Shown in pieces: positions 44,760 through 62,498 of a stretch of 64,000 nucleotides of DNA. A program made the position numbers and the translations under genes. The DNA comes from Nematostella vectensis (taxonomy: Eukaryota). Each line of letters begins with the position of its first letter. Within the stretch, counting starts at the first letter, position 1. The stretch is from positions 6,257,459 to 6,321,458 of the forward strand of contig NC_064039.1 in NCBI RefSeq assembly GCF_932526225.1, given 5' to 3'. Below the pieces are notes generated by a model. That model saw nothing but the letters and a program-made list of their open reading frames with translations. It was not told the DNA's origin and made no database searches.

Positions 44760-45748
44760 TGAGACAGAAAATCGCCCCTGCTCATGGTTGCTCACTTCCG
44801 GTTTGCCAAGGAAACCCAGATGAACAGGGAACAAATTGAATGGGCGCATGCATTTTTTTTACGCTCGATATATTTATTTTTCAAGAATAGTGTTTCGTTT
44901 TAGTTTTTTTTACTGGATTCGTTAAGAGATTTCTTTATCCCAATCCAAGTCTTAATGGTATACATACCACCAGTACTCTTCCTGTTTGCTCGCCGATACA
45001 ACGTAACCATCTTCGCTTCTTGACTTGGCCTCGCTCCACCTTTGAAGATTGGGCTTGACATCGTTTGCGTCCTCTTTGCTCATGTTGCTGCTGAATTTAA
45101 AAATCATGAAAACACGAACTTTTACAACTAACTATTGGGGAATCTGGAGCGAGTTTAAAAGGTCGACTTTGCCTGATGTGAAAAACAAAACCTACAAGAC
45201 AGAGAAAAATGTGGGTGTTCGAGTGTACTGTAGCCTACCCCGTAGGCATCTCAAAGAGCATTCAACTGTTCAAAGAGCAATAGAGAAAAATTGCCCAACA
45301 CCGCCTGGTTGAACTCCCTGTGGAGTGCTCATGATTTCTCACTTCCGGTTTGCCAAGGAAACCCAAATCAAAGGGGAATAAATTGAATGGACGCATGCAT
45401 GGTTTTACGCTCGATATATTCATTTTTCAAGAATAGTGTTTCGTTCTAGATTTTTCTTACTGGATTCTTTTAGAGATTTCTTTATCCGTATCCAAGTTTA
45501 CACTGAAGAGTAGTGTGTTACCTTTCGGCCTTAGTCGGCTGAACATCGCTCAACTTTTCCAGATCAGGCTTGACATCCTTTGTGTCTTCTTTGCTCATGT
45601 TCCTGCTGACTCTAAAAATTATGAAAGCGTGAACTTTCACAATAAGCGGTATGGGGTAATCTGGAGAAGGTTGGAAGGTCGAATTTGTTTGATGTGAAAA
45701 AAAAAACCCTTCAAGACTGAGGAAAATGTGGGCTAAAGCCTTTCCCTC
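44760..45748 (+). repeat. Host 547-bp tandem repeat (unit 1 complete; unit 2 interrupted by the Maverick/Polinton element and continuing at 62383)
   Basis: The marker CTCACTTCCGGTTTGCCAAGGAAACCC occurs at 44791 and 45338. The units share AATTGAATGG.CGCATGCAT, TTTTCAAGAATAGTGTTTCGTT and a minus-strand MSKED..DVKP.L mini-ORF. Confidence 0.75.
45743..45748. repeat. Target-site duplication, left copy (TCCCTC)
   Basis: Identical hexamer directly abutting both element ends. A 6-bp TSD is the Maverick/Polinton hallmark. Confidence 0.75.
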
Positions 45749-46255
45749 AGTAGTAGGGTTTTGGCGCAGCTGGCGCAACTTTTTGATCTCCCCAAATTTC
45801 ATTCCAAAAGTGGCGCAAAAGTCTCCGCACACCTCCGCCAAGCCTCGCGACCTGCGCATGCGCGAGTTTGCCAGAGATCTCTCGCACGACCAAGCCCACC
45901 TGTCAATCACTTTGTCACGTGACGGCCACGCCCACCTGTCAATCACTTTGTCACGTGACGGCCACGCCCACCTGTCAATCACTTTGTCACGTGATAGCCA
46001 CGCCCACCTGTCAATCATTTTGTAAAAAACCTGTCAATCACTTTGTCACGTGATGACCACGCCCACCTGTCAATCATTTTGTCAAAAACCTGTCAATCAC
46101 TTTGTCAAAAACCTGTCAATCACTTTGTCAAGAACCTGTCAATCACTTTGTCAAAAACCTGTCAATCACTTTGTCAAGAGCCTGTCAATCATTTTGTCAC
46201 GTGATAGCCAAGCCCACCTGTCAATCACTTTGTCACGTGCTGCACCTAGGGGGAG
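45749..46255 (+). repeat. Left terminal inverted repeat of the Maverick/Polinton element
   Basis: The outer ~150 bp are identical to the reverse complement of 62233..62382. They are followed by 12 copies of a subrepeat with core CCTGTCAATCA(C/T)TTTGTCA, in 36-bp (..GTCACGTGACGGCCACGCCCA..) and 23-bp (..GTCAAAAA..) variants. GCGCATGCGC lies at 45854..45863. Confidence 0.9.
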
Positions 46256-46270
46256 CCTGGGGGCTATTCT

Positions 46271-46281
46271 GGTCTAAAGAC
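46271..46281 (+). promoter_or_regulatory. Degenerate early-type box GGTCTAAAGAC upstream of ORF 46301
   Basis: It lies 20 nt before the ATG and carries one mismatch to GGTTTAAAGAC. Confidence 0.3.
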
Positions 46282-46300
46282 GTATGAGACCCTAGATAAA

Positions 46301-46561
46301 ATGACATTAAAGACGGAGGTGAAGATTAAAAACGGTGCGGCTACCGCCGGCGGTTGTTCGGTGCCGGAGGTGAACGTGAGTAACACTGCGGATGCGGGGC
46401 CTGAACACTGCTGTTGTAACGCTGATTACTATGAAGACTCAGAATACGGAAGCTTCGACCCCGTTGGGTTTGTGGCCGGAGCGGCGACAATTGTCCTTGG
46501 TGTTCTAGCAATGTTAGTCTCCATGCCACGGTATGGCGAAAAAAGATGGGTGAGATACTAG
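46301..46561 (+). CDS. Element ORF: small tail-anchored membrane protein (86 aa), function unknown
   Basis: ATG-initiated ORF just inside the left TIR. It is preceded by the degenerate box GGTCTAAAGAC (46271..46281). It has a C-terminal hydrophobic helix, VGFVAGAATIVLGVLAMLV. Confidence 0.35.
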   Translation: MTLKTEVKIKNGAATAGGCSVPEVNVSNTADAGPEHCCCNADYYEDSEYGSFDPVGFVAGAATIVLGVLAMLVSMPRYGEKRWVRY

Positions 46562-46652
46562 TCCACGGATGTGGTGCGGAGGCTTTAGACCGCACCGCCC
46601 CCACGCGGACCCCTTCGGAAGTCTTAGCAACCACACACATCACACCCAGAGG

Positions 46653-46674
46653 GAGCTCGAGGGGCTAGCCTCTC
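46653..46674 (+). other. Palindromic motif copy GAGCTCGAGGGGCTAGCCTCTC (upstream of the TFIIB-like gene)
   Basis: Non-coding copy, ~30 nt upstream of the early box. Confidence 0.6.
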
Positions 46675-46701
46675 AGCTTCACATCTAAAAAAGCTTTTGA
46701 A

Positions 46702-46716
46702 AAGTGGTTTAAAGAC
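46702..46716 (+). promoter_or_regulatory. Early-type TATA-like box AAGTGGTTTAAAGAC (TFIIB-like gene)
   Basis: TTTAAAG starts 26 nt before the ATG at 46734. It is part of a 46-nt block identical to the PolB upstream region. Confidence 0.6.
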
Positions 46717-46733
46717 ATGAACAGTTTAATAAA

Positions 46734-47660
46734 ATGGAGGAACGAACAGTTGAACGTACGGCTGAAGATCGGTCACCACCACCATATAATATCCTCGGCG
46801 GACCGGTGCCTGAGATTAACGCCCCCACCCTCATGCCGGAATTTGCACTGTTTGACCGAGCCCTCACCGAATACGAGACTAGTAGAGCCTCCTTGGGAGA
46901 CGAGGATAGTAGTAACACCCTTTGCAATCATGGCGACCTAGTCACAGAGGACGGGGTCACTAGTTGCTTAGAGTGCGGGGAACAGATGCAGCGCGTGATC
47001 GCGCACGAAAGGGAATGGGGTTTTTACGGACATTCCGACGGCGAACGGTCTTCGGATCCAAGTCGGGTCCAGGTACGTAGGTCTGAGGATAGAAATATTG
47101 ACAAGGATGTGGAGAACATGGGTTTTAGCGGGGTAATTGTATCCAAAGCTAACGAGATATACACTCAGGTGACGAAAGGCCAGATTTTTCGCGGCGACCC
47201 ACGGAAGGCGGTCGTCTTTGCGTGTATCTACTACGCCTACAAGATGTCCGGTAAGTGTCAGACACCGAAAACCTTGATGGAAACTTTTGGATTGAGCAGG
47301 AAGAGTTGCCTTAAGGGTCTAAAAATCTTTAGTATTAACGTGCCTAAAGATTACTTACTACACGGAACGTCTCCCACCGTCGTGGACCACATTCACGATG
47401 TGATGGATAGATTCTCGGCGTCCCCCGCACAGAAGGGAGAGGTGGTCCAGCTCTACTACAGATCTAAGAACCGCTCGTCTGAGTTGAATCGCGCTCGCCC
47501 ACAATCCTTTGCGGTCGCTTTAACCTATTACTGGGTACGGCTAAAGGGGGTCGATATTACACTTAAAAAATTCTCCGAAAGAACGGGCGTCTCCGAGTTA
47601 ACCATCAGTAGGAAAGCGAGAGAAGTGGCCACAGTCCTGGGTACGCCTGGTGTGGTATGA
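46734..47660 (+). CDS. Element-encoded TFIIB-like transcription initiation factor (zinc ribbon + B-reader-like segment + two cyclin folds)
   Basis: 308 aa. CNHGDLVTEDGVTSCLECG..REWGFY..SDPSRVQ parallels TFIIB CPNHPDAILVED..ICPECG..SEWRTF..KDPSRVG. RGDPRKAVVFACIYYAYKMSG..TLMETFGLSRKSCLKGLKIF parallels the first cyclin repeat ([42 protein letters not shown]). RARPQSFAVALTYYWVRLKGVDITLKKFSERTGVSELTISRKAREV parallels the second ([38 protein letters not shown]). The comparison is from memory of the TFIIB sequence, not a computed alignment. Confidence 0.8.
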   Translation: MEERTVERTAEDRSPPPYNILGGPVPEINAPTLMPEFALFDRALTEYETSRASLGDEDSSNTLCNHGDLVTEDGVTSCLECGEQMQRVIAHEREWGFYGHSDGERSSDPSRVQVRRSEDRNIDKDVENMGFSGVIVSKANEIYTQVTKGQIFRGDPRKAVVFACIYYAYKMSGKCQTPKTLMETFGLSRKSCLKGLKIFSINVPKDYLLHGTSPTVVDHIHDVMDRFSASPAQKGEVVQLYYRSKNRSSELNRARPQSFAVALTYYWVRLKGVDITLKKFSERTGVSELTISRKAREVATVLGTPGVV

Positions 47661-47749
47661 TGTTTCCTGATTTCCAGAGAAATCAGGATTTCCAGAAAAC
47701 TGTCAGTTCGGAGTAGATGTGAATTAACACGTCTAAAGAAATTCGAAAA

Positions 47750-47764
47750 AAGTGGTTTAAAGAC
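47750..47764 (+). promoter_or_regulatory. Early-type TATA-like box AAGTGGTTTAAAGAC (ankyrin gene)
   Basis: TTTAAAG starts 26 nt before the ATG at 47782. Confidence 0.6.
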
Positions 47765-47781
47765 GTGGATGTAATAACAAA

Positions 47782-48606
47782 ATGGATATGCAAAGTGCTG
47801 GAAGTCTTACAAATCTCACCGTGGAGGATCAAGCCGCCACCTTAGCGAGGTGGGGAGCCGCAGACTTTGACGCCGTTATGGAGCGCGCGGCGTGGGAGGG
47901 GTGCGTCGAGACCGTGAGGTTGTGTAAGAGTTGGGGTGCGACGGATTTCGAAAAGCCGATGGTCAGGGCCGCAATGAACGGCCACACCGAGATCGTTAAG
48001 ATGTGTTGTGAGTCGGGCGCCTGTGACTTCGTGTATCCAGCGTCCATGGCCGCGAAAGGCGGGCACGTAGAGGTTTTGAAGGTGATGGGCGAGTATTGTG
48101 CCGACGGAGGAGAGGCCATGACCGAGGCCATGGGTGCTGCGGCGGCGGAAGGTCAGGTGGGGGTTGTTGAGTTGTTGATAGATCTAGGTGTCGATGTCGA
48201 TGTCGGTTGGGCCACCGCTGAGGCGGCGTACAATGGGCACGTTGAGGTTCTGAAGCTGCTGAGAGAAAACTTCTGGGAGTTTGACCCGGACTATGCTATA
48301 ACACCAGCCATCGAATCTCGCAACCTCGAGATTGTGAGGTTGTGCTTGGAGTGGGGCGCGACCGATCTCATTGTACATATGAACTACGCACGGTTTTGGC
48401 ATCTGCATAAGATTTTCGCGGTGCTACGTGCGGCGTGGGGGTGGAGTCTTGTGCATGAGGAGCTCCCGGAGAAGCTACACAAGGTGAGATTCCGTAGAAA
48501 GCTGGAGGACGAACTAATGCCAGTAGCTTGGCATCCGGACAGGTTTTGGGATTGGTGCATGGATGAGCAAGAGAAGGAAATGTTGGGAGAATGCTTCGCC
48601 AGGTAG
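47782..48606 (+). CDS. Element ORF: ankyrin-repeat protein with a Trp/Cys-rich C-terminal tail
   Basis: 274 aa with about 6 repeats bearing the ankyrin signature: AAWEGCVETVRLC, AAMNGHTEIVKMC, AAKGGHVEVLKVM, AAAEGQVGVVELL, AAYNGHVEVLKLL, ESRNLEIVRLCLEWGA. The tail is VAWHPDRFWDWCMDEQEKE. The early-type box lies at 47750..47764. Confidence 0.75.
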   Translation: MDMQSAGSLTNLTVEDQAATLARWGAADFDAVMERAAWEGCVETVRLCKSWGATDFEKPMVRAAMNGHTEIVKMCCESGACDFVYPASMAAKGGHVEVLKVMGEYCADGGEAMTEAMGAAAAEGQVGVVELLIDLGVDVDVGWATAEAAYNGHVEVLKLLRENFWEFDPDYAITPAIESRNLEIVRLCLEWGATDLIVHMNYARFWHLHKIFAVLRAAWGWSLVHEELPEKLHKVRFRRKLEDELMPVAWHPDRFWDWCMDEQEKEMLGECFAR

Positions 48607-48647
48607 ACGCCGACCGGCTAGAAGGCGGGTATCGCGTGTTGGATTGA

Positions 48648-48663
48648 AAAGTGATTTAAGGAC
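48648..48663 (+). promoter_or_regulatory. Early-type box AAAGTGATTTAAGGAC (zinc-ribbon gene)
   Basis: It directly abuts the ATG at 48664 and lies 27 nt before the second ATG at 48682. Confidence 0.55.
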
Positions 48664-49011
48664 ATGACCGGTTTGATAGAAATGGAGAACCAAACGGTGA
48701 AAGACTCGAAAGTATCCCCCGTAAAGCGAACAACGGATTATAAGTGTCTTCATGGCAGAGTGAAATATTATTGCAAAGATTGTCACGGATCGCAAATCTG
48801 CCCTCACAACCGGAGAAAAACGCGGTGCAGAGAATGTAACGGCGGTAGCATTTGTGAGCACAGACGAGCAAGATATGTCTGTAAAGACTGCAAGGGGAAA
48901 GGGATGTGTGAACACAGCAAACAGAGACCCTTTTGTAAGTTATGCGGAGGGTCTCAAATATGCGAACACGATAGACAAAAGCACCATTGCAGAACGTGTA
49001 ACGGAAATTAA
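48664..49011 (+). CDS. Element ORF: tandem Cys/His zinc-ribbon repeat protein (putative nucleic-acid binding)
   Basis: 115 aa with four tandem units of C-x-H-x(4-6)-C-x2-C-x-G-x3: CLHGRVKYYCKDCHGSQI / CPHNRRKTRCRECNGGSI / CEHRRARYVCKDCKGKGM / CEHSKQRPFCKLCGGSQI / CEHDRQKHHCRTCNG. It shares the N-terminal MTGLIEMEN and the promoter with the PolB gene. The functional start may be the second ATG at 48682. Confidence 0.6.
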   Translation: MTGLIEMENQTVKDSKVSPVKRTTDYKCLHGRVKYYCKDCHGSQICPHNRRKTRCRECNGGSICEHRRARYVCKDCKGKGMCEHSKQRPFCKLCGGSQICEHDRQKHHCRTCNGN

Positions 49012-49026
49012 CATTGACCCACTCAG

Positions 49027-49053
49027 TTTTGTAACGCGTCTCACGTTACAAAA
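49027..49053. terminator. Perfect 10-bp stem hairpin at the convergence point of the plus and minus gene blocks
   Basis: TTTTGTAACG-cgtctca-CGTTACAAAA, 16 nt after the stop codon of the zinc-ribbon gene. A role in 3' end formation is speculative. Confidence 0.3.
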
Positions 49054-49208
49054 CACATACATTCCTAATCACCCTAACAACTAGCGATTCTGAAAATAGG
49101 TTTTGTATTTACATTGAGAGTTCGCGGTCGCCAGGGTGGTCTGGTATGCACGTGAACAGGTATTGTCTTCTTGCGGTACGTCACATCCGTCCACATGCAC
49201 CCCGCATG

Positions 49209-50735: not shown

Positions 50736-50742
50736 ATAAGAT

Positions 50743-50755
50743 GTTTTTAAATCAG
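50743..50755 (-). promoter_or_regulatory. Variant box CTGATTTAAAAAC (ORF 49209..50735)
   Basis: It lies 9 nt before the first ATG at 50735 and ~21 nt before the second ATG (MSYKM). Confidence 0.4.
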
Positions 50756-50813
50756 TCCTTTACGCATCTCAATTCATAGATCCATCCGACGGGAGTTCTC
50801 TCGTACAGAAATT

Positions 50814-51419: not shown

Positions 51420-51441
51420 AGCTTTATTATGGGGAGAATTT

Positions 51442-51455
51442 ATTCTTTAAGTGAT
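51442..51455 (-). promoter_or_regulatory. Variant box ATCACTTAAAGAAT (ORF 50814..51419)
   Basis: It lies ~25 nt before the ATG at 51419 and overlaps the stop codon of the penton candidate. Confidence 0.45.
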
Positions 51456-52070: not shown

Positions 52071-52073
52071 TTG

Positions 52074-53096: not shown

Positions 53097-53120
53097 TTCT
53101 TATTTTGTTTGAAAATAAGA

Positions 53121-53133
53121 AATCTTTAAGTCG
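53121..53133 (-). promoter_or_regulatory. Late-type box CGACTTAAAGATT (ORF 52074..53096)
   Basis: It lies 34 nt before the ATG at 53096. Confidence 0.5.
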
Positions 53134-53140
53134 TGCCAGC

Positions 53141-53557: not shown

Positions 53558-53574
53558 TTATTAATCAATCTATA

Positions 53575-53588
53575 AGATCTTTAAGTCG
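53575..53588 (-). promoter_or_regulatory. Late-type box CGACTTAAAGATCT (ORF 53141..53557)
   Basis: It lies 28 nt before the ATG at 53557. Confidence 0.5.
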
Positions 53589-53589
53589 C

Positions 53590-53814: not shown

Positions 53815-53839
53815 GATTTTATTTATTACAGATTCAGAT

Positions 53840-53853
53840 AATCTTTAAATCAC
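53840..53853 (-). promoter_or_regulatory. Late-type box GTGATTTAAAGATT (ORF 53590..53814)
   Basis: It lies 35 nt before the ATG at 53814. The 14-mer is identical to the one at 54335..54348. Confidence 0.55.
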
Positions 53854-54311: not shown

Positions 54312-54334
54312 GATTCTTTACTCACTGAATAAAG

Positions 54335-54348: not shown

Positions 54349-54352
54349 ATCA

Positions 54353-54981: not shown

Positions 54982-55005
54982 CTTATTTTGTAAGTAGACC
55001 AAGAT

Positions 55006-55043: not shown

Positions 55044-55670
55044 TCACCGCGTGGCAGGAATCTCCAAATAACGTTGGAATGGATGTCGTAGGCAGAAACA
55101 GAGTCTGGAATACTTTTCAGTTTTCAGCAGTTCTACAAACTTTTTACGAGTCTCAACGTCTAAGTCACCCCCATAATCTTCAAACAGTGTTTTGGTACCG
55201 ATTTGAGATGGATTATGGAATGTAACCACACAGGCGACGTTATCACGGAAGGGCTTTGCTATGGATGTTAATTGTTGCGTCAATACCCACACTGATAATC
55301 CTTCGTGTCTCCCTGAGAACGCTAAATTGATAAACTTGTTCGAGCGTTGCTTTAGATCTTTCGATACAGCACAGTCATCCAAAACGAGTAACGTATTTGT
55401 ACCAGAAAATAGCACCGCACAATCTGTTAGTAACTCGTTAATCTCATCGGTGTTACTAGCATCCGGCGATAATACCAAGAAACGTTTATCTCCGTGAGCA
55501 AATCTACGATAGGACTTGTTTTTCGCATAAGTCGGACAAATCAACACAATGTATTCAAACACATGCCGGAACGGCCCTCGGAGCTGTTCCGTGAGGTACT
55601 TTGTCTTCCCACAATTAGTAGGTCCTGTGATAATACAATGAAAAGGAACTTTTTCCCGTAATTCTTCCAT
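55044..55670 (-). CDS. FtsK/HerA-type DNA-packaging ATPase
   Basis: Walker A is IITGPTNCGKT and Walker B is LLVLDDCA. The size (~208 aa) and position next to the capsid gene are typical of Polinton and PRD1-adenovirus-lineage packaging ATPases. The ORF-track start at 55691 is a TTG; the first ATG is at 55670 (MEELREK), ~25 nt downstream of the box TATTAAAAAGGAC. Confidence 0.85.
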   Translation of the reverse strand: MEELREKVPFHCIITGPTNCGKTKYLTEQLRGPFRHVFEYIVLICPTYAKNKSYRRFAHGDKRFLVLSPDASNTDEINELLTDCAVLFSGTNTLLVLDDCAVSKDLKQRSNKFINLAFSGRHEGLSVWVLTQQLTSIAKPFRDNVACVVTFHNPSQIGTKTLFEDYGGDLDVETRKKFVELLKTEKYSRLCFCLRHPFQRYLEIPATR

Positions 55671-55691
55671 TCTTTTTGTATTATCACACAA

Positions 55692-55705
55692 GTCCTTTTT
55701 AATAC
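55692..55705 (-). promoter_or_regulatory. Variant box GTATTAAAAAGGAC (ATPase gene), overlapping the MCP stop codon
   Basis: It lies ~25 nt before the ATG at 55670. The MCP TAA stop codon is embedded in the box. Confidence 0.45.
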
Positions 55706-56937
55706 ATGATTGCTCTCAAATTCGAGTTCATAACCTCCATCAACGCGTCGGCTACTACAAACATGTAGCAGGTGATGTTTCCCGTTCCTCCAACTTTTCG
55801 TTTCATCTCGAGTTTTACTCCGTCTCGCGTGTTGTTCAAGACCAGACCTCCTCCGTGAATGCTGTTATCTGGGTGTGCCCTCAAGTCGACCCACAGAGCA
55901 AACTTGTTATTAGCGTAAAAATCCTTTTGCTTGACACCCTCTCTACCGAAACGTTTCTTTACCGACTCCCAGAGGTCCGGCGGTGTCATCCCCTTGGAGT
56001 AGAGACGGTTTGGCATGCCATCCACATTAATGTTGATCGATGTGATGCTTGGATTGACAAACTTTTCGGAATCCCTTGCTCCTCCGGTGTAGCTCTCTGT
56101 GAACAGGCACAATATCCCTGTCATTGACCTCCTCGGCAGATTAATGTGCTCGTTTATGACACCATCATTAGGTTTGGAGATGGTGAACGTTTTGTGGAGA
56201 ATGACGTTCTCGTAAAAGAATCCTCTACCAACCTGATAAGCCGACAACGCCTCACGAGCTAAGTATTCACTTGAGATGCAAGCATATTCCAACTCGAGGT
56301 TTGTGATTGTGTACGTTGGAGTCTTGACCGTGTCAGCATAAACAACGACGTCGGAAACTGGGGCTAGAGTAATTTCAAAGATTAGCGGATGAGGTAACGC
56401 CTTTGGATAAAAGACCCCATGCTCGCCGAGAATAGGATGGTCGAGTGGAATGCAGTACTTGGTGTTGTGAACTGCTGCAAGAGCTACTTCCTTAGCATCT
56501 GATGTCGCTTTGTCACCTGCATTTGTCCTGAGCTTCCTCATGTTCTCAGAGGAGATACCTTGTTTTATTCTATCCTCACGATCTTCAGCTTGTAAGTATA
56601 AGTCGTGATAGGTTTGGAAGAGATCGTATCTTTGAGTATCCTGTAGTGTTTCTCCACCGAAAAGAATCTTGAGCCTTGACACTAGGTTCCGGCCAACGTT
56701 GTTGACGAGAGTATTATTCGCGTGTCCTGTGACGTTTAAGTCAAATAGTAAGGATACACTACCTGGAACAATCACTACATTTTCAGCAAGTTTTGGAATA
56801 TTTATATAGAGGGTTTCTCCAGGACTTGCCGATGAGGGATTGAATGTAATCCGATTCAGCGACGATTCCGCTTTCAGGCCGAAGGGTTCCCGTGGGATCC
56901 TGTTTGGGTTAATTTTTTCTGATATCGCTTGTGCCAT
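55699..56937 (-). CDS. Candidate major capsid protein (double jelly-roll expected), 412 aa
   Basis: Its position is immediately upstream of the packaging ATPase. It carries a late-type box, and its size and beta-rich composition fit. No other ORF in the element is a better MCP candidate. The fold was not verified. Confidence 0.55.
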   Translation of the reverse strand: MAQAISEKINPNRIPREPFGLKAESSLNRITFNPSSASPGETLYINIPKLAENVVIVPGSVSLLFDLNVTGHANNTLVNNVGRNLVSRLKILFGGETLQDTQRYDLFQTYHDLYLQAEDREDRIKQGISSENMRKLRTNAGDKATSDAKEVALAAVHNTKYCIPLDHPILGEHGVFYPKALPHPLIFEITLAPVSDVVVYADTVKTPTYTITNLELEYACISSEYLAREALSAYQVGRGFFYENVILHKTFTISKPNDGVINEHINLPRRSMTGILCLFTESYTGGARDSEKFVNPSITSININVDGMPNRLYSKGMTPPDLWESVKKRFGREGVKQKDFYANNKFALWVDLRAHPDNSIHGGGLVLNNTRDGVKLEMKRKVGGTGNITCYMFVVADALMEVMNSNLRAIMY

Positions 56938-56961: not shown

Positions 56962-56975
56962 AATCTTTAAATGAG
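56962..56975 (-). promoter_or_regulatory. Late-type box CTCATTTAAAGATT (MCP gene), overlapping the integrase start codon
   Basis: It lies 34 nt before the MCP ATG at 56937. The palindromic TTTAAA core sits in the 33-bp divergent MCP/integrase spacer. Confidence 0.55.
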
Positions 56976-57963
56976 TAACGAAAGCAGGTTATCAAAAATA
57001 TACTATTCCACCGATGGATACTGGAAAGGGTATTCAGCTATTTATAAGTTAGCTAGTGTCGCTAAAGTCAGTGAAGCCGAGGCTAAGAGGTGGCTTGAAA
57101 AACAGGCGTTGTGGCAGATCTATCTCCCAGCTCCAAAGTATGTCCCCAGACCGCATTGGACTGTGAATAAACCTAATCAGATTCACCAAGCCGATCTGTT
57201 GTTTATGCCCCACGATAACGTAGGCAGAAAAACCTACCGTTACGCGTTGGTCGTGATTGATATTGCCTCGAGATATAAAGATGCAGAAGCACTGACTACC
57301 AAGGATTCGAGTGGAATTGCTAAAGGGTTTGAAAAGATATACTCCAGAAAACTTAAATGGCCTCATACGGTGATTGTCGATCCGGGGACAGAATTTAGGG
57401 GAGAGGTAACGAAGATTATGAAAAAGAAGGGGGTTACCATCCAGCGAAGCGAAGCTGGGAACCATCGCGCACAGGCTTTTGTCGAACGCGCCAATAGAAC
57501 ACTGGCGGAGAGGTTGTTTTCTTATCAGTATGCTCAAGAAATGATTAGCGATGATCGGTCCAGAGTTTGGGTGAAACGATTGCCAGATGTTTTGAAGACT
57601 CTGAATAGTCAACCCATAAGAATTACTGGCAAAGAGCCTGTAAAATCTATTGGTTTGAAAGAGGTTGATATTGACCCTCCAACGTATAAGCGGCCTGTTG
57701 GACTTGACGAAGTTAGACTACCACCAGGGGTTAGAGTTAGATATCTATTAGCTCCTGGAGAAGAGGAAGGAGGTGAACGCAGACGAGCCACAGACCCCAT
57801 TTGGAGTTTGAAAGTGTTTGATCTATCACGCAGTGTTGTTTCGGTTGGGCAGCCTGTGTTGTACTACCTCTCCGAAGGCGCTCCAAGGAGGTCGTTCGTT
57901 AGGGAAGAACTTCAAGTCGTCCCTGAAGATACTGAGCCACCACCTAATAGCGTTCTGAAATGA
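56971..57963 (+). CDS. Retroviral-type (rve) DDE integrase
   Basis: The catalytic-core pattern is HQADLLFMP..(D), VIVDPGTEFRG (D), AQAFVERANRTLAERL (E), with typical spacing. The C-terminal beta-rich tail (VLYYLSEGAPRRSFVREELQVV) looks chromo/SH3-like. Confidence 0.9.
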   Translation: MSNESRLSKIYYSTDGYWKGYSAIYKLASVAKVSEAEAKRWLEKQALWQIYLPAPKYVPRPHWTVNKPNQIHQADLLFMPHDNVGRKTYRYALVVIDIASRYKDAEALTTKDSSGIAKGFEKIYSRKLKWPHTVIVDPGTEFRGEVTKIMKKKGVTIQRSEAGNHRAQAFVERANRTLAERLFSYQYAQEMISDDRSRVWVKRLPDVLKTLNSQPIRITGKEPVKSIGLKEVDIDPPTYKRPVGLDEVRLPPGVRVRYLLAPGEEEGGERRRATDPIWSLKVFDLSRSVVSVGQPVLYYLSEGAPRRSFVREELQVVPEDTEPPPNSVLK

Positions 57964-60900
57964 CCGTGAGCGAAGGTGTGAATACCATCATCACAGATGA
58001 CCCGTTTATCATCCTCATGAGATAGAGCGACCTTGTTCACCGTTTCAGTGTAAACATCATGCTTATGACTTCTGATGACATTCATAAGTCTCATCTGAGG
58101 TTTCTTACCAAATAAGCAATCCTTGTAGTCATCGAAACCGATGCTCTTCTTGACGACTGCTCTCTTGACGCCCTTGCATTTCTTTTCTTCTTTACCTTCA
58201 TCCATCTTGTACGAGTAAAGTTTGGCCCTCAGTCCTACAAATTCTGTGATTTGCTGGCCCCCAGCCTCATCTTTAAACATTCCGATGACTTTCTTGTTCA
58301 CACCCACCTCAATACCAGATGGGTGACCCTTCGGAAAGTTGCTGGTGTCGAACATGGACCTCACATCCCCGCTGATGTCCTCGTAAAAGTCTTTCGTCTC
58401 GATCTCATACATCAGGCTGTCAGTATCAGTGAATAAGAGCTTTGCATCCTCACCGTACTTAGGCTTGACGAAGTTGTAGTGGAAATCGTACATGAGCGTC
58501 TTACTCAGGTCCAGAATGGACATACCCAAGTAGACAGGCTTGTTGAAGATCAGCTTTGTCTTCTTCATGTGGATGGCGGCTAGATTCTCGCAAAAGATGG
58601 TGCGATGTTGATAGTTCGGCTTTGATATGAGCTTCTTGGCCTGCTTCTCGTCCGTCACCAACCGAATGTCCACCCTGTTCCTAATGTTCTCCATAGTCTT
58701 ACCAAAGACGGAGTTGTTCATTAACTTGAAAAAATCTTTCTCAAAATCGTTTGTCGCCTTGGCTCTCAGATCGGTGTTCAAGTCAATGTAGGGCTCCAGC
58801 CAAGCAGACTCCTCAAAAGTGACACCCCTGTGAATCTTGGTGACTTTTAGCCCAAAACTCACATAAAGTCTCAGAGTCTCATGGTGGATAACGTACTTTG
58901 TCTTGTCGTTAAGGTTGGGGACCAACTTGTCCACATTGCCTAGCCCGATAGATTCCGGGGCTAGTGGGTAATCGTTGTGTAAGTCATGTAGGTGGTGAGG
59001 GTACTCCAAGTCAACCTCCAGAATGCATGGGCGGTCTCTCCAACCTGACAGCTCTTGGTCACCCATCCACCTGAAACCGTGAGTCGGTAAAGGGTTGCTC
59101 ATCGCCCAGCCATACAAATTGTTAGCATCAAGGTAGGTGATATATTTTGTGGGTAGGTCAGGGTCATACTCCTTCATGTAAGGGTTATTTGCCTCCCCAT
59201 GTCTGTTGCTTATCATGGAGACACCCCCACGGATGCCCTTCTCAATCATGAGCAACATGTCATAGTCCGTTAGAAGCTCTAGCCTCACCTTGGTGGTCTT
59301 CAACGCTGCATCCCAAGCCAACCCTGGCGCTGTGTAGTACCAAGCGGGGTCCAGACCGTAATTCTTGAGACAAACGTCCCTAAAGTTCTCGAAAACGTCA
59401 GCTAAAAGCAACACATCCGACTCTAGGTACAGATTGTGGTAATCCCTCATGGTCCCCATCCCAAAGGCCTCCCACACTCTCCGCGCGTGCAGGTGATCCT
59501 CCTCCGATATGTCGGTGTCGTTGAGTTTGGAGTGGAACGCCTCTCTCTGTGGGAGCTGTGTTGCGTCGAGCTTGCTAAAGCCGTCGAACCAGTCGTAAGG
59601 GAAAACACCCTTCCTCAACAACAGCTGAAGCTCCTCCCCCTCATAGTACTCCGCCAGGTTTTTGAAGCACTCCCTTGACATATTACCCACTAGACTGTCG
59701 AGACTGGCCGACATAAACCTGAAACTGTCGATAAATCTGATATCACGTTTAACATCAATCTTGTTGCCCTCCTTGTTCGTGAAACTGTCGACTACAATCT
59801 GTTTTGTGAAAGAAATATACTTTTCCTCGTTATTAGGTATACAGTTTATTTTACCTTCCGATGTACCAAGGTTCTTGATAAATAGATGGCTGTCGTACCC
59901 AGACAGATTGTGAAAGATAACAGGAAAGAACTTTGGAATTTTGTGATCTAAGTTGCATGCGTTGTGAGCAGCACCTCTGTACTTCCCTGTAAGGTGGCAA
60001 TGGTCCAAAACCTTGTCTTCCCCTAATTCACCCTCACAGATGTGGCAGTGAGTGGCGTCGTTATAGGCGATTTTGTCCTTCGGAGTCATTTTCACCTTCT
60101 TAGGGAACCTGAACTTATCATAAATTTTCTTAATGTCTGACTCCAAAGACTCTACGAAAAGCTGTGGGATATCTTCGTCTGGAGATTCAGCTGTGTATCG
60201 TACAAGCTCGGATGGGGATATATCTCCGTCGAAACACTTGATGAGATAGCAGAAACCAGACGGTTTGTGTTTCTGGTATTGCTTAGTGAAGCTTTTACTC
60301 TCATCTGGGGAGCATGTGTCTATATTCTCTGTGAAGCTCTCAAAGTCGGCGTAGACAACAAAGGGGACACGCATTTTTCTGTTGTAGTTTTTGAATTTAA
60401 TGTGGGGTAGATTTCCATCCTTATCTATCTTAGGCATCTCTATTCCAACCGCTTCATGATTGCCGCAGCATTCAGAATGTTTTTCTAATGATTGTTTGCA
60501 CCGAAACGAGTTCAGACATCTACAGCATAAAAAACGAGTATGATGAAACTCATCAATTTGAGTAGATACTAATCTCATCATATTCTTTATCCAGCAGTAA
60601 TGATTCGTCTCATCATCCGAGATGAGAAGTAAGTTGATTGCATTATCTGGATCCTTCTCACTGATTCTCAATGGATATATTTTGGTTTCGTATCCAAACA
60701 CATTAACCGTATACTGGTTCTGTTTCTCGAACTTGTCAATCTGTTTTAGTGAGACGGGGAACTCTATCCCTGACCAGTCGAATTTCTCAGAGCTCTCTAT
60801 CATTTGTTTACTGAACCTTTGAGGATCTTTCTCCCTAGGATACACAGCAGAGGTTACTGCCCACTTGAAACATTCGTGATCATTCTCGTTCTTAACATTG

Positions 60901-61838
60901 ATGATCGCCTTCTTAGACGCTAGTTTCAGCGGCAGCGGAATATAGGAAGACCCAGAAAGCGGTTCAAAGGGATCTATGTTGATGTCAAAGTATTCCACTT
61001 GGTCAAACTGCCATCCGGAGCCTTGCTTCTGGAACAGCTCAACTAATCCGAGTAAATAATTTGTCATCGTATCGAACAAATCAGAGAGATCAGTCGACTC
61101 TGTCACAATCTCGGGCTTCTCTGTATGAAAATATCCCAGTTCTTCTTCGATCTGAGCTGTAGCCGGATCCTCTTTTATAAACCCGCAAGTAAAGATAAAC
61201 TTCACTTTGATAGGCTTTTTTTGTCGACTGATGAGCTCTAAGACTTTCGGTTTGATTCTGGCGATGAATGTCTTGGGGTCGTAACCTCTCTGCCCGGCTA
61301 TTCCGTGGGTTTTAAGATACCCCTTCAACGCCGTCTGTTGTTCCTTGGGTGTGAAGCGATCTTCCACCTCCTCGTGTAGACGCTTAATCCTCTCCTTCAG
61401 ACGTTCGACCCGTTTATCTGCAGCCTCTTTGACGGTCTTTTTGACGGGCTCGGGGACATAAGATAGTATCCAATCCGCAAACTTGTCTAACTCGCTCTTG
61501 ATCAAGTTGGCCGCCCTGTTTGCAAAATGCTTGAGTGATTGGACGCGGGAACTCCGTGGGGGTTGGGAGGGTTTTAGAATAGGGACATTAATCTCAGGTA
61601 TCGGGCCGTCGAGAATACTCTCCGACGTGTTGGACGGGGTAATGCGGGGTGGTCGTGGCAGCCCTTTGACAAGTTTGGGTAAAGGAACCCGTCGGGGTGG
61701 TGGTGGTGGTGACGTGCTGGTCAGCGCCCCGACGAGCTCGTCTCTCCGCATCCAGTAATATCTTGGGATACCCCGCTCCTTGGCGAGGGCTTTCAGATCT
61801 TTCACCTTCAGGTTCTCCATTTCTATCAAACCAGTCAT
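57912..61838 (-). CDS. Protein-primed family B DNA polymerase with a long N-terminal (terminal-protein-like) region and a SAP-like motif
   Basis: 1308 aa. Pol motifs: YLDANNLYGWAM (A), KLMNNSVFGKTME (B), LLFTDTDSLMY (C). Exonuclease region: VVYADFESF. N-terminus: LKVKDLKALAKERGIPRYYWMRRDELVGAL (SAP-like). The early-type box lies at 61839..61853. The functional start may be the second ATG at 61820. Confidence 0.95.
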   Translation of the reverse strand: MTGLIEMENLKVKDLKALAKERGIPRYYWMRRDELVGALTSTSPPPPPRRVPLPKLVKGLPRPPRITPSNTSESILDGPIPEINVPILKPSQPPRSSRVQSLKHFANRAANLIKSELDKFADWILSYVPEPVKKTVKEAADKRVERLKERIKRLHEEVEDRFTPKEQQTALKGYLKTHGIAGQRGYDPKTFIARIKPKVLELISRQKKPIKVKFIFTCGFIKEDPATAQIEEELGYFHTEKPEIVTESTDLSDLFDTMTNYLLGLVELFQKQGSGWQFDQVEYFDINIDPFEPLSGSSYIPLPLKLASKKAIINVKNENDHECFKWAVTSAVYPREKDPQRFSKQMIESSEKFDWSGIEFPVSLKQIDKFEKQNQYTVNVFGYETKIYPLRISEKDPDNAINLLLISDDETNHYCWIKNMMRLVSTQIDEFHHTRFLCCRCLNSFRCKQSLEKHSECCGNHEAVGIEMPKIDKDGNLPHIKFKNYNRKMRVPFVVYADFESFTENIDTCSPDESKSFTKQYQKHKPSGFCYLIKCFDGDISPSELVRYTAESPDEDIPQLFVESLESDIKKIYDKFRFPKKVKMTPKDKIAYNDATHCHICEGELGEDKVLDHCHLTGKYRGAAHNACNLDHKIPKFFPVIFHNLSGYDSHLFIKNLGTSEGKINCIPNNEEKYISFTKQIVVDSFTNKEGNKIDVKRDIRFIDSFRFMSASLDSLVGNMSRECFKNLAEYYEGEELQLLLRKGVFPYDWFDGFSKLDATQLPQREAFHSKLNDTDISEEDHLHARRVWEAFGMGTMRDYHNLYLESDVLLLADVFENFRDVCLKNYGLDPAWYYTAPGLAWDAALKTTKVRLELLTDYDMLLMIEKGIRGGVSMISNRHGEANNPYMKEYDPDLPTKYITYLDANNLYGWAMSNPLPTHGFRWMGDQELSGWRDRPCILEVDLEYPHHLHDLHNDYPLAPESIGLGNVDKLVPNLNDKTKYVIHHETLRLYVSFGLKVTKIHRGVTFEESAWLEPYIDLNTDLRAKATNDFEKDFFKLMNNSVFGKTMENIRNRVDIRLVTDEKQAKKLISKPNYQHRTIFCENLAAIHMKKTKLIFNKPVYLGMSILDLSKTLMYDFHYNFVKPKYGEDAKLLFTDTDSLMYEIETKDFYEDISGDVRSMFDTSNFPKGHPSGIEVGVNKKVIGMFKDEAGGQQITEFVGLRAKLYSYKMDEGKEEKKCKGVKRAVVKKSIGFDDYKDCLFGKKPQMRLMNVIRSHKHDVYTETVNKVALSHEDDKRVICDDGIHTFAHGHFRTLLGGGSVSSGTT

Positions 61839-61853
61839 GTCTTTAAACCACTT
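61839..61853 (-). promoter_or_regulatory. Early-type TATA-like box AAGTGGTTTAAAGAC (PolB gene)
   Basis: It abuts the ATG at 61838 and lies 27 nt before the second ATG at 61820. Confidence 0.6.
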
Positions 61854-61881
61854 TTCAAAAGCTTTTTTAGATGTGAAGCTT

Positions 61882-61902
61882 AGAGGCTAGCCTCCCGAGC
61901 TC
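61882..61902 (-). other. Palindromic motif copy (upstream of PolB, at the inner TIR edge)
   Basis: The reverse complement reads GAGCTCGGGAGGCTAGCCTCT and contains the perfect 12-bp palindrome GAGGCTAGCCTC. Confidence 0.6.
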
Positions 61903-62382
61903 CCCCTAGGTGCGACACGTGACAAAGTGATTGACAGGTGGGCTTGACTATCACGTGACAAAGTGATTGACAGGTTCTTGACAAAATGATTGACAGGTTC
62001 TTGACAAAATGATTGACAGGTTTTTTACAAAGTGATTGACAGGTGGGCGTGGCTATCACATGACAAAGTGATTGACAGGTTTTTGACAAAGTGATTGACA
62101 GGTGGGCTTGGCCGTCACGTGACAAAGTGATTGACAGGTTTTTTACAAAGTGATTGACAGGTGGGCTTGGCTATCACGTGACAAAGTGATTGACAGGTGG
62201 GCTTGGCTATCACGTGACAAAATGATTGACAGGTGGGCTTGGTCGTGCGAGAGATCTCTGGCAAACTCGCGCATGCGCAGGTCGCGAGGCTTGGCGGAGG
62301 TGTGCGGAGACTTTTGCGCCACTTTTGGAATGAAATTTGGGGAGATCAAAAAGTTGCGCCAGCTGCGCCAAAACCCTACTAC
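61899..62382 (-). repeat. Right terminal inverted repeat of the Maverick/Polinton element
   Basis: Reverse complement of the left TIR, with 11 subrepeat copies in a slightly different order. GCGCATGCGC lies at 62269..62278. The base at 62383 is ambiguous between TIR and TSD. Confidence 0.9.
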
Positions 62383-62388
62383 TCCCTC
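62383..62388. repeat. Target-site duplication, right copy (TCCCTC)
   Basis: See the left copy. If 62383 is counted as TIR instead, the TSD is the 5-bp CCCTC. Confidence 0.75.
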
Positions 62389-62498
62389 AAGCATCTTAGA
62401 GAGCCCTCAAAAGAGAGACAAAAAAATAACACTTTGCAAATAAAAACAAATTCTAGGGTTGTTTAGAATAAGATTGATTTGGAATTTTATTAATAAAT

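What the first reader, a model, noticed from the sequence alone, without database searches (positions are those of the whole stretch)
45850..46255. TIRs are built like host-type enhancer/promoter arrays: NRF1 palindrome plus 11-12 copies of TGATTGACAG and CACGTG
Seen in sequence:
- Each TIR carries GCGCATGCGC once (45854..45863 and 62269..62278).
- Each then carries 12 (left) or 11 (right) copies of the core TGACAAAGTGATTGACAGG (written on the minus strand for the left TIR). About half of these are fused to GTCACGTGA(C/T).
- Copy order differs between the two TIRs although the outer 150 bp are identical.

Established knowledge: TGATTGACAG is the PBX-MEIS heterodimer consensus. (T/G)TCACGTGA(C) is the USF / MiT-TFE E-box (CLEAR-type). 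GCGCATGCGC is the NRF1 consensus.

Inference: the termini may recruit host TALE-homeodomain, bHLH-Zip and NRF1 factors to drive the inward-facing PolB and TFIIB-like genes. Alternatively, the subrepeats may be iterated binding sites for the integrase or terminal protein (a replication origin). Either role would be of interest for how the element is activated.
Basis: partly seen in the sequence, partly recalled or inferred. Interest (0 to 1): 0.6.

Follow-up and report, generated by a model that had tools for sequence, protein, structure and literature searches.

The report
Repeat-built enhancer-like ends of a Polinton
The two ends of a virus-like Polinton/Maverick transposon in a sea-anemone (Nematostella) genome each carry 11-12 tandem repeats containing perfect matches to animal transcription-factor sites, placed just upstream of the element's outermost genes; they look like a lineage-specific viral enhancer rather than the sites used for integration or replication, but this has not been tested experimentally.

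Summary
A 16.6-kb Polinton/Maverick (window 45749-62383) has terminal inverted repeats. Each has an identical 150-bp outer segment containing GCGCATGCGC, followed by 12 (left) or 11 (right) tandem units. All 23 units contain TGATTGACAG. Units are 36 bp (with CACGTG) or 23 bp, and their order differs between the arms.

- TGATTGACAG is the TALE 'DECA' Pbx:Prep/Meis site, and Nematostella has Pbx and Meis.
- The arrays lie 35-110 bp upstream of a proximal promoter module (TGGTYTAAAGAC) shared by the inward-facing PolB, TFIIB-like and orf86 genes.
- Four related elements (PolB 68-75% identical) have none of these motifs. They share only the terminal ~30 bp (AGTAGTAGG..GGCGG..GCGCA) and the TTTAAAGA promoter. 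One has just ~65 bp from terminus to ATG.

The arrays are therefore a lineage-specific accessory. This argues against an integrase or terminal-protein site and fits an enhancer-like add-on or a neutral minisatellite. The 23 copies are not independent events, and variation within the array has no power to show constraint. DNA of closer copies could not be retrieved.

Seen in passing: a TTTAAAGA promoter motif throughout the family, and a TFIIB gene 66% identical to giant-virus TFIIB.

The parts
45743..45749 (.). Left target-site duplication, TCCCTCA. This is 6 bp with a one-base ambiguity against the terminal A of the TIR.
   Evidence: The same heptamer directly flanks the right end at 62383-62389.
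45749..45898 (+). Left TIR, outer non-repetitive 150 bp (GC 56%, CpG o/e 1.05). The first ~30 bp, AGTAGTAGGGTTTTGGCGCAGCTGGCGCAA, is the family-conserved terminal motif.
   Evidence: It is identical to 62234-62383 in reverse complement. The terminal motif aligns with the termini of L001, L002, L148 and L149.
45854..45863 (.). GCGCATGCGC, a 10-bp palindrome matching the NRF1 consensus.
   Evidence: There are only two copies in the window, one per TIR. A second 10-bp palindrome, AGAGATCTCT, lies at 45873-45882. Two or more such palindromes occur in 0.9% of shuffles.
45899..46239 (-). Left array of 12 units, order LLLSLSSSSSLL. Each has TGACAAAGTGATTGACAGG on the minus strand. Long units add GGGCKTGGCYRTCACG, which contributes CACGTG, CAGGTG and CCACGCCC/CCAAGCCC.
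46240..46300 (+). Leader/promoter copy 1: CACCTAGGGGGAGC...TGGTCTAAAGAC, 21 nt before the orf86 ATG.
   Evidence: It aligns with the leaders of PolB and the TFIIB-like gene.
46301..46561 (+). orf86, a small lineage-specific ORF next to the left array. No Pfam match.
46640..46733 (+). Leader/promoter copy 2 (CACCCAGAGGGAGC...TCTAAAAAAGC...GTGGTTTAAAGACAT), upstream of the TFIIB-like gene.
   Evidence: Inverted repeat I5, 46640-46754 versus 61801-61915, is 83% complementary. See also the alignment.
46734..47660 (+). TFIIB-like gene (308 aa). Both cyclin repeats align to human TFIIB.
   Evidence: Pfam TFIIB repeat, E=1.5e-8. PDB TFIIB, E=1.8e-5. 96% identical to N. vectensis 'TFIIB-like'. 66% identical to a giant-virus MAG protein.
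47782..48606 (+). Ankyrin-repeat accessory gene.
   Evidence: Pfam Ank_2, E=7.9e-12.
55044..55691 (-). A32/FtsK-type packaging ATPase.
   Evidence: Pfam Pox_A32, E=3.7e-11.
55699..56937 (-). Putative major capsid protein (412 aa).
   Evidence: Weak Pfam Capsid_N match, E=0.0036, below the cutoff. Its position is syntenic in L001, L002 and L148. An identical protein occurs in two other datasets.
56971..57963 (+). rve-family integrase.
   Evidence: Pfam rve, E=9.9e-8, exactly at the gathering score.
57912..61808 (-). Protein-primed-type family B DNA polymerase. The likely start is ATGGAG at 61808; the ORF's first ATG is at 61838. It has an N-terminal SAP/Rho_N-like domain and an Endonuclease VII insert.
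   Evidence: Motifs read from the translation: ExoI DFE, ExoII NLSGYD, ExoIII YLESD, A DANNLYG, B KLMNNSVFGKT, C FTDTDS. Pfam results are and homologues.
61809..61915 (-). Right leader/promoter (CACCTAGGGGGAGC...TCTAAAAAAGC...GTGGTTTAAAGACAT), upstream of PolB.
   Evidence: Nucleotide homology to the relatives resumes here, at about window 61855.
61916..62233 (+). Right array of 11 units, order LLSLSLSSSLL read from the terminus inwards.
62234..62383 (-). Right TIR, outer non-repetitive 150 bp, with GCGCATGCGC at 62269-62278 and AGAGATCTCT at 62250-62259.
62383..62389 (.). Right target-site duplication, TCCCTCA.

Best explanation
The arrays are most likely a lineage-specific, tandemly amplified upstream activating (enhancer-like) region built into both TIRs of a Nematostella Polinton/Maverick.

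Each end has four parts, read from the terminus inwards:
1. A ~30-bp terminal motif conserved across the family. By inference, this is the real recognition site for the integrase and for protein-primed initiation.
2. A GC-rich 120-bp segment with two 10-bp palindromes, including GCGCATGCGC.
3. 11-12 units, each with a perfect Pbx:Prep/Meis 'DECA' site (TGATTGACAG). About half also carry a USF/TFE-type E-box (GTCACGTGAY), a CAGGTG box and a CCACGCCC box.
4. A proximal promoter/leader module (TGGTYTAAAGAC, 20-38 nt before the ATG) shared by the outermost inward-facing genes: PolB on the right, orf86 and the TFIIB-like gene on the left.

The inferred mechanism is that host TALE homeodomain dimers, bHLH-Zip factors and possibly NRF1 bind the arrays and raise or time transcription from the adjacent TIR-embedded promoters. 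They may secondarily open the nearby origin. Repeat number drifts by slippage, as it does in viral enhancers.

What is shown: the anatomy, the motif identity, the position relative to the promoters, and the absence from relatives. What is inferred: factor binding and enhancer activity.
For: - Each unit has an exact 10/10 match to the DECA motif. There is also a 10-bp CLEAR/USF-type E-box and a 10-bp NRF1 palindrome.
- The DECA motif is bound by Pbx:Prep/Meis dimers. In zebrafish blastulae it is co-enriched with CC(C/A)C(G/A)CCC, the box adjacent to it in the long units here (PMC6023610).
- NvPbx and NvMeis exist, interact and bind bilaterian consensus sites (PMC3957477).
- The arrays end 35-110 bp upstream of a promoter/leader module present in three copies, before PolB, the TFIIB-like gene and orf86.
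- The TTTAAAGA element is a family-wide gene-proximal motif. Eight of the 12 strict copies in the element lie 25-38 nt upstream of an ORF start, where about 0.08 would be expected by my own estimate (not a tool result). It is conserved in L001, L002 and L149.
- In relative L001 the TIR also embeds the promoter and the 5' coding end of the terminal genes.
- Four relatives with 68-75% identical PolB lack every one of these motifs and keep only the terminal ~30 bp and the proximal promoter. One has only ~65 bp between terminus and ATG. Another has its own unrelated AT-rich subrepeats in the same place.
- Together these show that the interval is a variable, regulatory-type slot and is not needed for integration or replication.
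Against: - There are no expression, accessibility or binding data.
- The 23 copies come from tandem duplication, so motif 'enrichment' amounts to about one event per motif. The motifs were also recognised after the fact, from a large repertoire of known sites.
- Variation within the array cannot demonstrate constraint. Only 2 of the 19 shared positions vary, and the chance that both miss the 10-mer is about 0.2 (derived).
- The CCACGCCC box is replaced by CCAAGCCC in most right-arm units, so that reading is weak.
- The host region is rich in minisatellites, two of which also carry CCACRCCC cores. Neutral expansion is therefore plausible.
- The motifs are absent from all relatives examined, so there is no evidence of conservation. 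Closer copies could not be retrieved.
Confidence: 0.45

Rival explanations
1. The array is a neutral minisatellite. A single ancestral segment between terminus and promoter, possibly carrying one functional site, was amplified by replication slippage or unequal exchange. The copy number and the array as such have no function.
For: - The window holds about 15 independent minisatellite arrays with 22-62-bp units, including one inside the element at 54353-54486.
- Array order and unit variants differ between the arms even though the flanking 150 bp are identical, which indicates very fast turnover.
- Arrays are absent from the relatives.
- There is no detectable constraint within the array.
Against: - The unit packs two or three exact high-information consensus sites (10/10 DECA, 10-bp E-box), which is unlikely for a random unit.
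- The array lies in the one interval where an upstream regulatory element would act.
- A different relative (L148) independently evolved subrepeats in the same slot.
- Both arms keep similar numbers and a similar L/S composition (12 versus 11 units).
Confidence: 0.25
2. The units are iterated binding sites for an element-encoded protein. Candidates are the integrase (transpososome assembly, as at Mu, Tn7 or Ac ends), the PolB N-terminal or terminal-protein domain, the packaging machinery (as with the adenovirus A-repeats), or an episome-tethering factor (as with EBV FR).
For: - The repeats are present in both ends in inverted orientation, close to the termini.
- PolB carries an N-terminal SAP/Rho_N-like DNA-binding domain.
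- Some long units fit the adenovirus packaging consensus TTTG-N8-CG. This comes from reading the sequence and from my own memory of that consensus.
Against: - Relatives with 68-75% identical PolB and a syntenic integrase and ATPase have no arrays. One has only ~65 bp from terminus to ATG.
- The terminal ~30 bp is conserved in the family and is the natural recognition site.
- The arrays start 150 bp from the terminus.
- The 23- and 36-bp spacings are not helically phased.
- No element protein with a recognisable sequence-specific DNA-binding domain was found among the lineage-specific genes.
Confidence: 0.15
3. The arrays form an auxiliary replication-origin region. Host factors bound to them stimulate protein-primed initiation at the terminus, as NFI and Oct-1 do in adenovirus ITRs. 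Transcription is not the main target, or not the only one.
For: - The element has a protein-primed-type PolB and a conserved terminal core.
- Polintons are related to adenoviruses (PMC10328495, abstract listed). Adenovirus ITRs combine a terminal core with host-factor sites (my own knowledge).
Against: - In adenovirus the host sites abut the core, within about 50 bp. Here the first candidate site is 105 bp from the terminus and the array 150-490 bp.
- Relatives replicate without any such region.
- This explanation does not exclude the enhancer reading.
Confidence: 0.1

Closest known systems
Adenovirus ITR plus adjacent E1A enhancer/packaging repeats
   Same: It is a linear, protein-primed genome related to Polintons. 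It has a conserved terminal core, followed by host transcription-factor sites and reiterated elements that lie upstream of the outermost early genes. The ITR-proximal sequence doubles as regulatory DNA.
   Different: Adenovirus host sites (NFI, Oct-1) abut the core within about 50 bp, and the ITRs are 100-200 bp without long tandem arrays. Here the array is 320-340 bp long, starts 150 bp from the terminus and uses different motifs (DECA, E-box). No functional data exist. The adenovirus details are from my own knowledge, not tested here.
Tandem-repeat viral enhancers (SV40 72-bp and 21-bp repeats, HCMV major immediate-early enhancer repeats, MLV LTR direct repeats)
   Same: Short units are each packed with host TF sites, amplified in tandem, variable in copy number between close relatives, and placed directly upstream of a core promoter.
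   Different: Those viruses are unrelated, with circular or LTR contexts. Here the array is duplicated in inverted orientation at both genome ends and drives inward-facing genes. Activity has not been demonstrated.
Polinton/Maverick TIRs in general
   Same: The element has TIRs, a TSD of about 6 bp and conserved short end motifs. Vertebrate Maverick TIRs range from 46 to 1,447 bp (PMC8097293). Polintons of Nematostella vectensis are catalogued (P-3_NV in PMC4028283).
   Different: I found no published description of TIR-internal arrays of host TF consensus sites, nor of a TIR-embedded shared promoter/leader. Searches found none.
Subterminal transposase-binding repeats of DNA transposons and phage Mu/Tn7 ends; 19-mer tandem repeats in the long inverted repeats of Tetrahymena Tlr1 (own knowledge)
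   Same: Reiterated short motifs lie inside both inverted ends of a mobile element that uses a DDE/rve-type enzyme.
   Different: Those repeats are conserved with their transposase and lie at or next to the cleavage site. Here the repeats are absent from relatives with similar integrases, and the conserved part is the terminal 30 bp.
Genomic TALE 'DECA' sites (TGATTGACAG) bound by maternal Pbx:Prep in early vertebrate embryos
   Same: The 10-mer is identical, and in the long units it is directly adjacent to a CC(C/A)C(G/A)CCC-type box (PMC6023610).
   Different: Host DECA sites are single. Here there are 23 copies in a mobile element of a cnidarian. Occupancy in Nematostella is unknown.

Membership tests
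Polinton/Maverick (polintovirus) element | Protein-primed-type family B DNA polymerase | tested here: met
   The Exo I-III and Pol A, B, C motifs are readable in the 1308-aa ORF. Pfam and PDB sequence searches did not detect it. Homologues in sea-anemone genomes are syntenic with the integrase, capsid protein and ATPase.
Polinton/Maverick (polintovirus) element | Retrovirus-like rve integrase | tested here: met
   Pfam rve, E=9.9e-8, 32.6 bits, equal to the gathering score.
Polinton/Maverick (polintovirus) element | Terminal inverted repeats and a target-site duplication of about 6 bp | tested here: met
   TIR arms 45749-45987 and 62145-62383 are 97% complementary, with further array and leader homology. 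TCCCTCA flanks both ends, with a one-base ambiguity.
Polinton/Maverick (polintovirus) element | Virion module: double jelly-roll capsid protein, A32-type ATPase, adenain-like protease | tested here: inconclusive
   The ATPase is clear (Pox_A32, E=3.7e-11). The capsid protein has only a sub-threshold Capsid_N match (E=0.0036). No protease or penton protein was detected by Pfam. No structure prediction was run.
Host transcription-factor enhancer (TALE DECA / bHLH-Zip E-box / NRF1 sites) | Sequence matches the factors' consensus sites | tested here: met
   TGATTGACAG is exact in 23 of 23 units. GTCACGTGA(C/T) is present in 9 units. GCGCATGCGC occurs once per TIR. The DECA consensus is confirmed in PMC6023610. 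The E-box and NRF1 consensus sequences are from my own knowledge. No PWM library was available.
Host transcription-factor enhancer (TALE DECA / bHLH-Zip E-box / NRF1 sites) | The host encodes the cognate factors with conserved specificity | tested here: met
   For NvPbx and NvMeis this rests on the literature only (PMC3957477). USF/TFE and NRF1 orthologues were not checked.
Host transcription-factor enhancer (TALE DECA / bHLH-Zip E-box / NRF1 sites) | The sites are conserved in related elements or copies | tested here: not met
   There are no DECA, TGACAG, CACGTG, NRF1 or CCACRCCC motifs in the PolB-side termini of L001, L002, L148 and L149. Copies at 80-96% identity could not be retrieved.
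Host transcription-factor enhancer (TALE DECA / bHLH-Zip E-box / NRF1 sites) | Factor occupancy, open chromatin, and enhancer activity in reporter assays | not testable with these tools
   This needs ChIP, ATAC, CAGE and reporter experiments in Nematostella.
Transposase/integrase multi-site subterminal repeats | Reiterated motif in both ends that co-varies with, and is conserved alongside, the recombinase | tested here: not met
   The motif is present in both ends. It is absent from relatives with syntenic integrases, whereas the terminal ~30 bp is conserved.
Adenovirus-type origin with auxiliary host-factor sites | Conserved terminal core with host-factor sites immediately adjacent (within about 50 bp) | tested here: not met
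   The conserved core is present. The first candidate host site (GCGCATGCGC) is 105 bp from the terminus and the array 150 bp.

The most novel reading that the evidence does not exclude
This cnidarian Polinton lineage may run a two-tier, virus-like transcription programme.

- Host developmental factors (Pbx:Meis/Prep, a USF/TFE-type bHLH-Zip, NRF1) would bind the TIR arrays and switch on the terminal 'early' genes: PolB on one side, and a TFIIB captured from a giant virus on the other.
- That viral TFIIB would then help drive the compact TTTAAAGA promoters found in front of nearly every structural gene.

The TIR arrays would then be the activation switch of an endogenous virus. The giant-virus TFIIB would also point to past co-infection of cnidarian cells by a Polinton and a Nucleocytoviricota virus.
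Probability: 0.1. Interest if true: 0.8.

Novelty: new variant of a known kind. Interest (0 to 1): 0.45.

Why it matters
How endogenous Polintons/Mavericks are switched on in animals is unknown. No regulatory DNA has been defined for them.

If the TIR arrays are real TALE/bHLH-responsive enhancers, they would identify the host factors that decide when an integrated virus-like element wakes, and hence the tissue or stage. They would also give a small, directly testable cis-element in Nematostella, which is an injectable model.

The comparison with relatives separates the ends into three parts, which is useful for annotating and engineering these elements:
- a conserved terminal core;
- a variable regulatory slot;
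- a conserved TTTAAAGA promoter.

If the arrays are merely a minisatellite, the finding is ordinary.

Tried and rejected
- **Contig look-ups for the closest proteins.** I looked up the N. vectensis PolB (P0001, P0002, P0123, P0128), the TFIIB-like protein (P0129), and the window's own TFIIB-like and orf86 proteins. None is on record. TIRs of close copies therefore could not be compared.
- **The window's capsid protein.** It is on record only on two short internal contigs. These are 98.4% and 99.6% identical in DNA to the window and contain no TIR.
- **Exact scans with a 17-mer from the unit.** Scans of viral and metagenome contigs gave only single, chance matches.
- **A two-core pattern in viral contigs.** TGATTGACAGG-N12-25-TGATTGACAGG gave 3 hits. 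The two I read (L150, L151) were unrelated: a coding repeat in a giant-virus gene and a simple duplication.
- **A protein search with the open reading frame that runs through the TIR.** The aim was to catch mis-called 'proteins' from other TIR copies. It gave 0 hits.
- **PolB and capsid protein against viral contigs.** No hits.
- **blastn of the element against the rest of the window.** No other copy or fragment was found.
- **A constraint test from unit-to-unit variation.** It has no power.
- **Idea rejected: the TTTAAAGA motif is the promoter of the giant viruses that carry the closest TFIIB.** Only 2 of 34 upstream regions in L146/L147 have it.
- **Idea set aside as unsupported: CCACGCC in the long units is a BRE for the element's TFIIB.** No TATA-like box follows it, and most right-arm units have CCAAGCC.
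- **Rfam scan and bacterial promoter/terminator scan of the TIR.** Neither gave anything relevant to the arrays.
- **Literature searches.** I found no description of TIR-internal TF-site arrays or of TFIIB genes in animal Polintons.
Full report
**What is there**

Window 45749-62383 is a 16.6-kb Polinton/Maverick-type element.

- It is flanked by TCCCTCA on both sides, a 6-bp target-site duplication with a one-base ambiguity.
- It encodes a 1308-aa protein whose translation shows the Exo I-III and Pol A, B and C motifs of protein-primed family B polymerases. This protein also has an N-terminal SAP/Rho_N-like domain and an Endonuclease VII insert.
- It also encodes an rve integrase, an A32-type ATPase and a probable capsid protein.
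- At the left end it carries an accessory block: orf86, a TFIIB-like gene, an ankyrin gene and orf115.
- The host is Nematostella vectensis or a very close relative. The best PolB hit is 89% identical and the best TFIIB-like hit 96% identical, both N. vectensis proteins.
- Internal DNA is 98.4-99.6% identical to contigs from two other datasets.

**Checking the observation**

- GCGCATGCGC occurs twice in the window, once per TIR.
- TGATTGACAG occurs 12 times in the left TIR, 11 times in the right and nowhere else. The expectation from shuffles is 0.22.
- The 19-mer core has the same 23 sites, 15 of them exact.
- The arrays are tiled without gaps by two unit types:
  - a 36-bp long unit, CCTGTCAATCAYTTTGTCA-CGTGAYRRYCAMGCCCA;
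  - a 23-bp short unit, CCTGTCAATCAYTTTGTMA-ARAR.
- Unit order is LLLSLSSSSSLL on the left and LLSLSLSSSLL on the right.
- The outer 150 bp are identical between the arms.
- CACGTG is present in 6 left and 5 right units.

The statistical excess is real but largely trivial. The units are tandem duplicates, so each motif represents roughly one independent occurrence.

**Anatomy around the arrays**

The homology between the arms continues inward past the arrays. Positions 46640-46754 and 61801-61915 are 83% complementary.

This segment is a leader/promoter module: CACCYAGRGGGAGC...TCTAAAAAAGC...GTGGTTTAAAGACAT...ATGGAG. It precedes both PolB and the TFIIB-like gene. A third, shortened copy precedes orf86, which sits in a ~380-bp insertion in the left arm.

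The TTTAAAGA core of this module is not special to the ends.

- Eight of the 12 strict TTAAAGA copies in the element lie 25-38 nt upstream of an ORF start on the same strand. I estimate that about 0.08 would be expected by chance. Degenerate versions precede four more genes.
- The same motif precedes most genes of relatives L001, L002 and L149.

The family therefore has its own compact promoter (TATA- or initiator-like) in front of nearly every gene. The arrays sit 35-110 bp upstream of the outermost copies of that promoter.

**Related elements**

DNA could be retrieved for four relatives from other anthozoan or metagenome assemblies, with PolB 75%, 74%, 72% and 68% identical.

- Their PolB-side termini share only two things with the window. 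The first is the terminal ~30 bp, AGTAGTAGG-N4-GGCGG-N5-GCGCA. The second is everything from the proximal promoter inward; nucleotide homology resumes at about window 61855.
- Between the two, the relatives have 0-130 bp of AT-rich DNA.
- They contain no DECA, TGACAG, CACGTG, NRF1 or CCACRCCC motif.
- L149 has only ~65 bp from terminus to ATG.
- L148 has three copies of its own unrelated AT-rich subrepeat in the same slot.
- In L001 the TIR is at least 291 nt and includes the promoter and 190 nt of PolB coding sequence. Embedding terminal-gene promoters in the TIR is therefore a family trait.

It follows that about 495 bp of each end in the window is a lineage-specific insertion into a variable regulatory slot. 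This covers the GC-rich segment with two 10-bp palindromes (P about 0.009), the array and the leader.

**What this says about function**

The arrays are dispensable for relatives with similar polymerase, integrase and ATPase, and the terminal 30 bp is what is conserved. The same argument applies to a packaging signal.

The enhancer reading fits several facts.

- It fits the position and the modular, fast-changing repeat structure.
- It fits the motif content. TGATTGACAG is the 'DECA' motif bound by Pbx:Prep/Meis dimers. In zebrafish blastulae it is occupied by maternal TALE factors and co-enriched with CC(C/A)C(G/A)CCC, the box next to it in the long units here (PMC6023610).
- Nematostella Pbx and Meis interact and bind bilaterian consensus sites (PMC3957477).

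The enhancer reading remains an inference, for these reasons.

- There is no evidence of conservation.
- Only 2 of the 19 shared unit positions vary, so constraint cannot be shown.
- The Sp/Klf-like box is CCAAGCCC in most right-arm units.
- The surrounding genome is unusually rich in minisatellites, two of them with CCACRCCC cores.

I put the enhancer/UAS model at about 0.45, a neutral minisatellite at 0.25, element-protein binding sites at 0.15, and a purely replicative auxiliary role at 0.10.

**Comparison with known systems**

- The element is an ordinary member of the Polintons. Nematostella Polintons are catalogued (PMC4028283). TIR length is known to vary widely, from 46 to 1,447 bp in vertebrate Mavericks (PMC8097293).
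- In architecture the ends most resemble adenovirus ends and tandem-repeat viral enhancers such as SV40, HCMV MIE and MLV LTRs. Adenovirus ends have a conserved terminal core, then host-factor sites and reiterated elements upstream of the outermost genes.
- They fail the tests for transposase-type subterminal repeats, because the repeats are not conserved alongside the recombinase.
- They also fail the test for an adenovirus-type auxiliary origin, because the sites do not adjoin the core.
- I found no published description of host-TF-site arrays or a shared embedded promoter in Polinton TIRs. I therefore rate this a new variant of a known kind.

**Side observations**

- **Giant-virus-like TFIIB.**
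  - The TFIIB-like protein aligns to both cyclin repeats of human TFIIB.
  - It is 66% identical and 83% similar over its whole length to a protein on giant-virus contigs.
  - On one of these contigs (L147) the neighbouring genes encode a kinase, a patatin, a glycosyltransferase and an NIF phosphatase, consistent with Nucleocytoviricota.
  - Dozens of further metagenomic proteins are 50-70% identical.
  - TFIIB is treated as a core gene of these viruses.
  - No TFIIB gene was seen in the parts of the relatives that were retrieved, and I found no report of one in an animal Polinton.
  - The gene carries a 33-aa N-terminal extension running back to the ATG that follows the TIR-associated leader. 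This suggests capture just inside the TIR.
- **An Rfam miRNA family inside the integrase gene.** A full-length match to mir-9460 lies inside the integrase ORF. The hairpin is no more stable than shuffled sequence.

**Limits**

All look-ups for the close N. vectensis copies failed because those records are not indexed. The key test, conservation of motif cores across the many genomic copies of this family, therefore remains to be done.

Noticed in passing
window 46734-47660 (+); loci L146 10001-10825 and L147 10001-10825: The element's TFIIB-like protein is 66% identical and 83% similar over 275 aa to a protein on giant-virus (Nucleocytoviricota) contigs. It is also 50-70% identical to many ~275-aa metagenomic proteins. 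No TFIIB gene was seen in the retrieved parts of the related Polintons. This looks like a fairly recent capture of a giant-virus core gene by an animal Polinton. RefSeq annotates the N. vectensis copies (a cluster of 33 proteins) as host 'TFIIB-like' genes.
   Followed up: partly
window 46273-61847, upstream of most element ORFs; L001, L002 and L149 likewise: A conserved motif, (R)TTTAAAGA(Y), lies 9-38 nt upstream of the ATG of 12-13 of the 15 ORFs. Eight of the 12 strict TTAAAGA copies lie at -25 to -38. It is conserved in relatives with 68-75% identical PolB. This is a family-wide compact promoter or initiator element that I did not find described for Polintons.
   Followed up: partly
window 57195-57262 (+), inside the integrase ORF 56971-57963: A full-length Rfam match to the mir-9460 precursor (RF03254, 102.9 bits, gathering score 85) lies within the Polinton integrase coding sequence. 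The hairpin is no more stable than shuffles (z = -0.76). This annotated miRNA family is probably derived from small RNAs of the transposon.
   Followed up: partly
window 7280-7558 and 31872-32442: Two host minisatellites (28 bp x 10 and 62 bp x 9) carry a CCACRCCC (Sp/Klf-type) core in every unit, similar to the GATAGCCACGCCCAC part of the long TIR units. Either this core is prone to minisatellite expansion in this genome, or it marks a common host binding site.
   Followed up: no
window 54353-54486: A second tandem array inside the element (22/32/54-bp units, TGCTCAAGAGCTTGCTCAGGTG, containing CACCTG on the coding strand) lies directly upstream of the TTTAAAGA promoter of orf153. L001 has two TGAGCA copies at the homologous place.
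   Followed up: no
window 57912-61838 (-), residues 587-630 and 7-38: The polymerase carries an Endonuclease VII/HNH-like insert between Exo I and Exo II, and an N-terminal SAP/Rho_N-like domain. Pfam and PDB sequence searches do not recognise the polymerase domain itself. In relative L001 the N-terminal domain is duplicated as a separate 165-aa gene by the other TIR.
   Followed up: partly
L148 6460-6640: A related element (PolB 74% identical) has three copies of an unrelated AT-rich subrepeat (CTCTAGGACAAAATCAAAAATTAAAAAAA) in the same slot between the terminal motif and the PolB promoter. Subrepeats therefore arose independently in this slot.
   Followed up: partly
window 45873-45882 and 62250-62259: A second perfect 10-bp palindrome, AGAGATCTCT, lies 9 bp from the GCGCATGCGC palindrome in each TIR, with TCGCGA 3 bp upstream. 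This is a cluster of dyad-symmetric candidate sites in the non-repetitive part of the TIR.
   Followed up: no
window 24636-25597, 36531-37484, 39458-40896, 62498-62952: The host DNA around the element is unusually dense in long minisatellite arrays (37 bp x 26, 40 bp x 24, 32 bp x 45, 161 bp x 2.8). This matters as background for judging any tandem array here.
   Followed up: no
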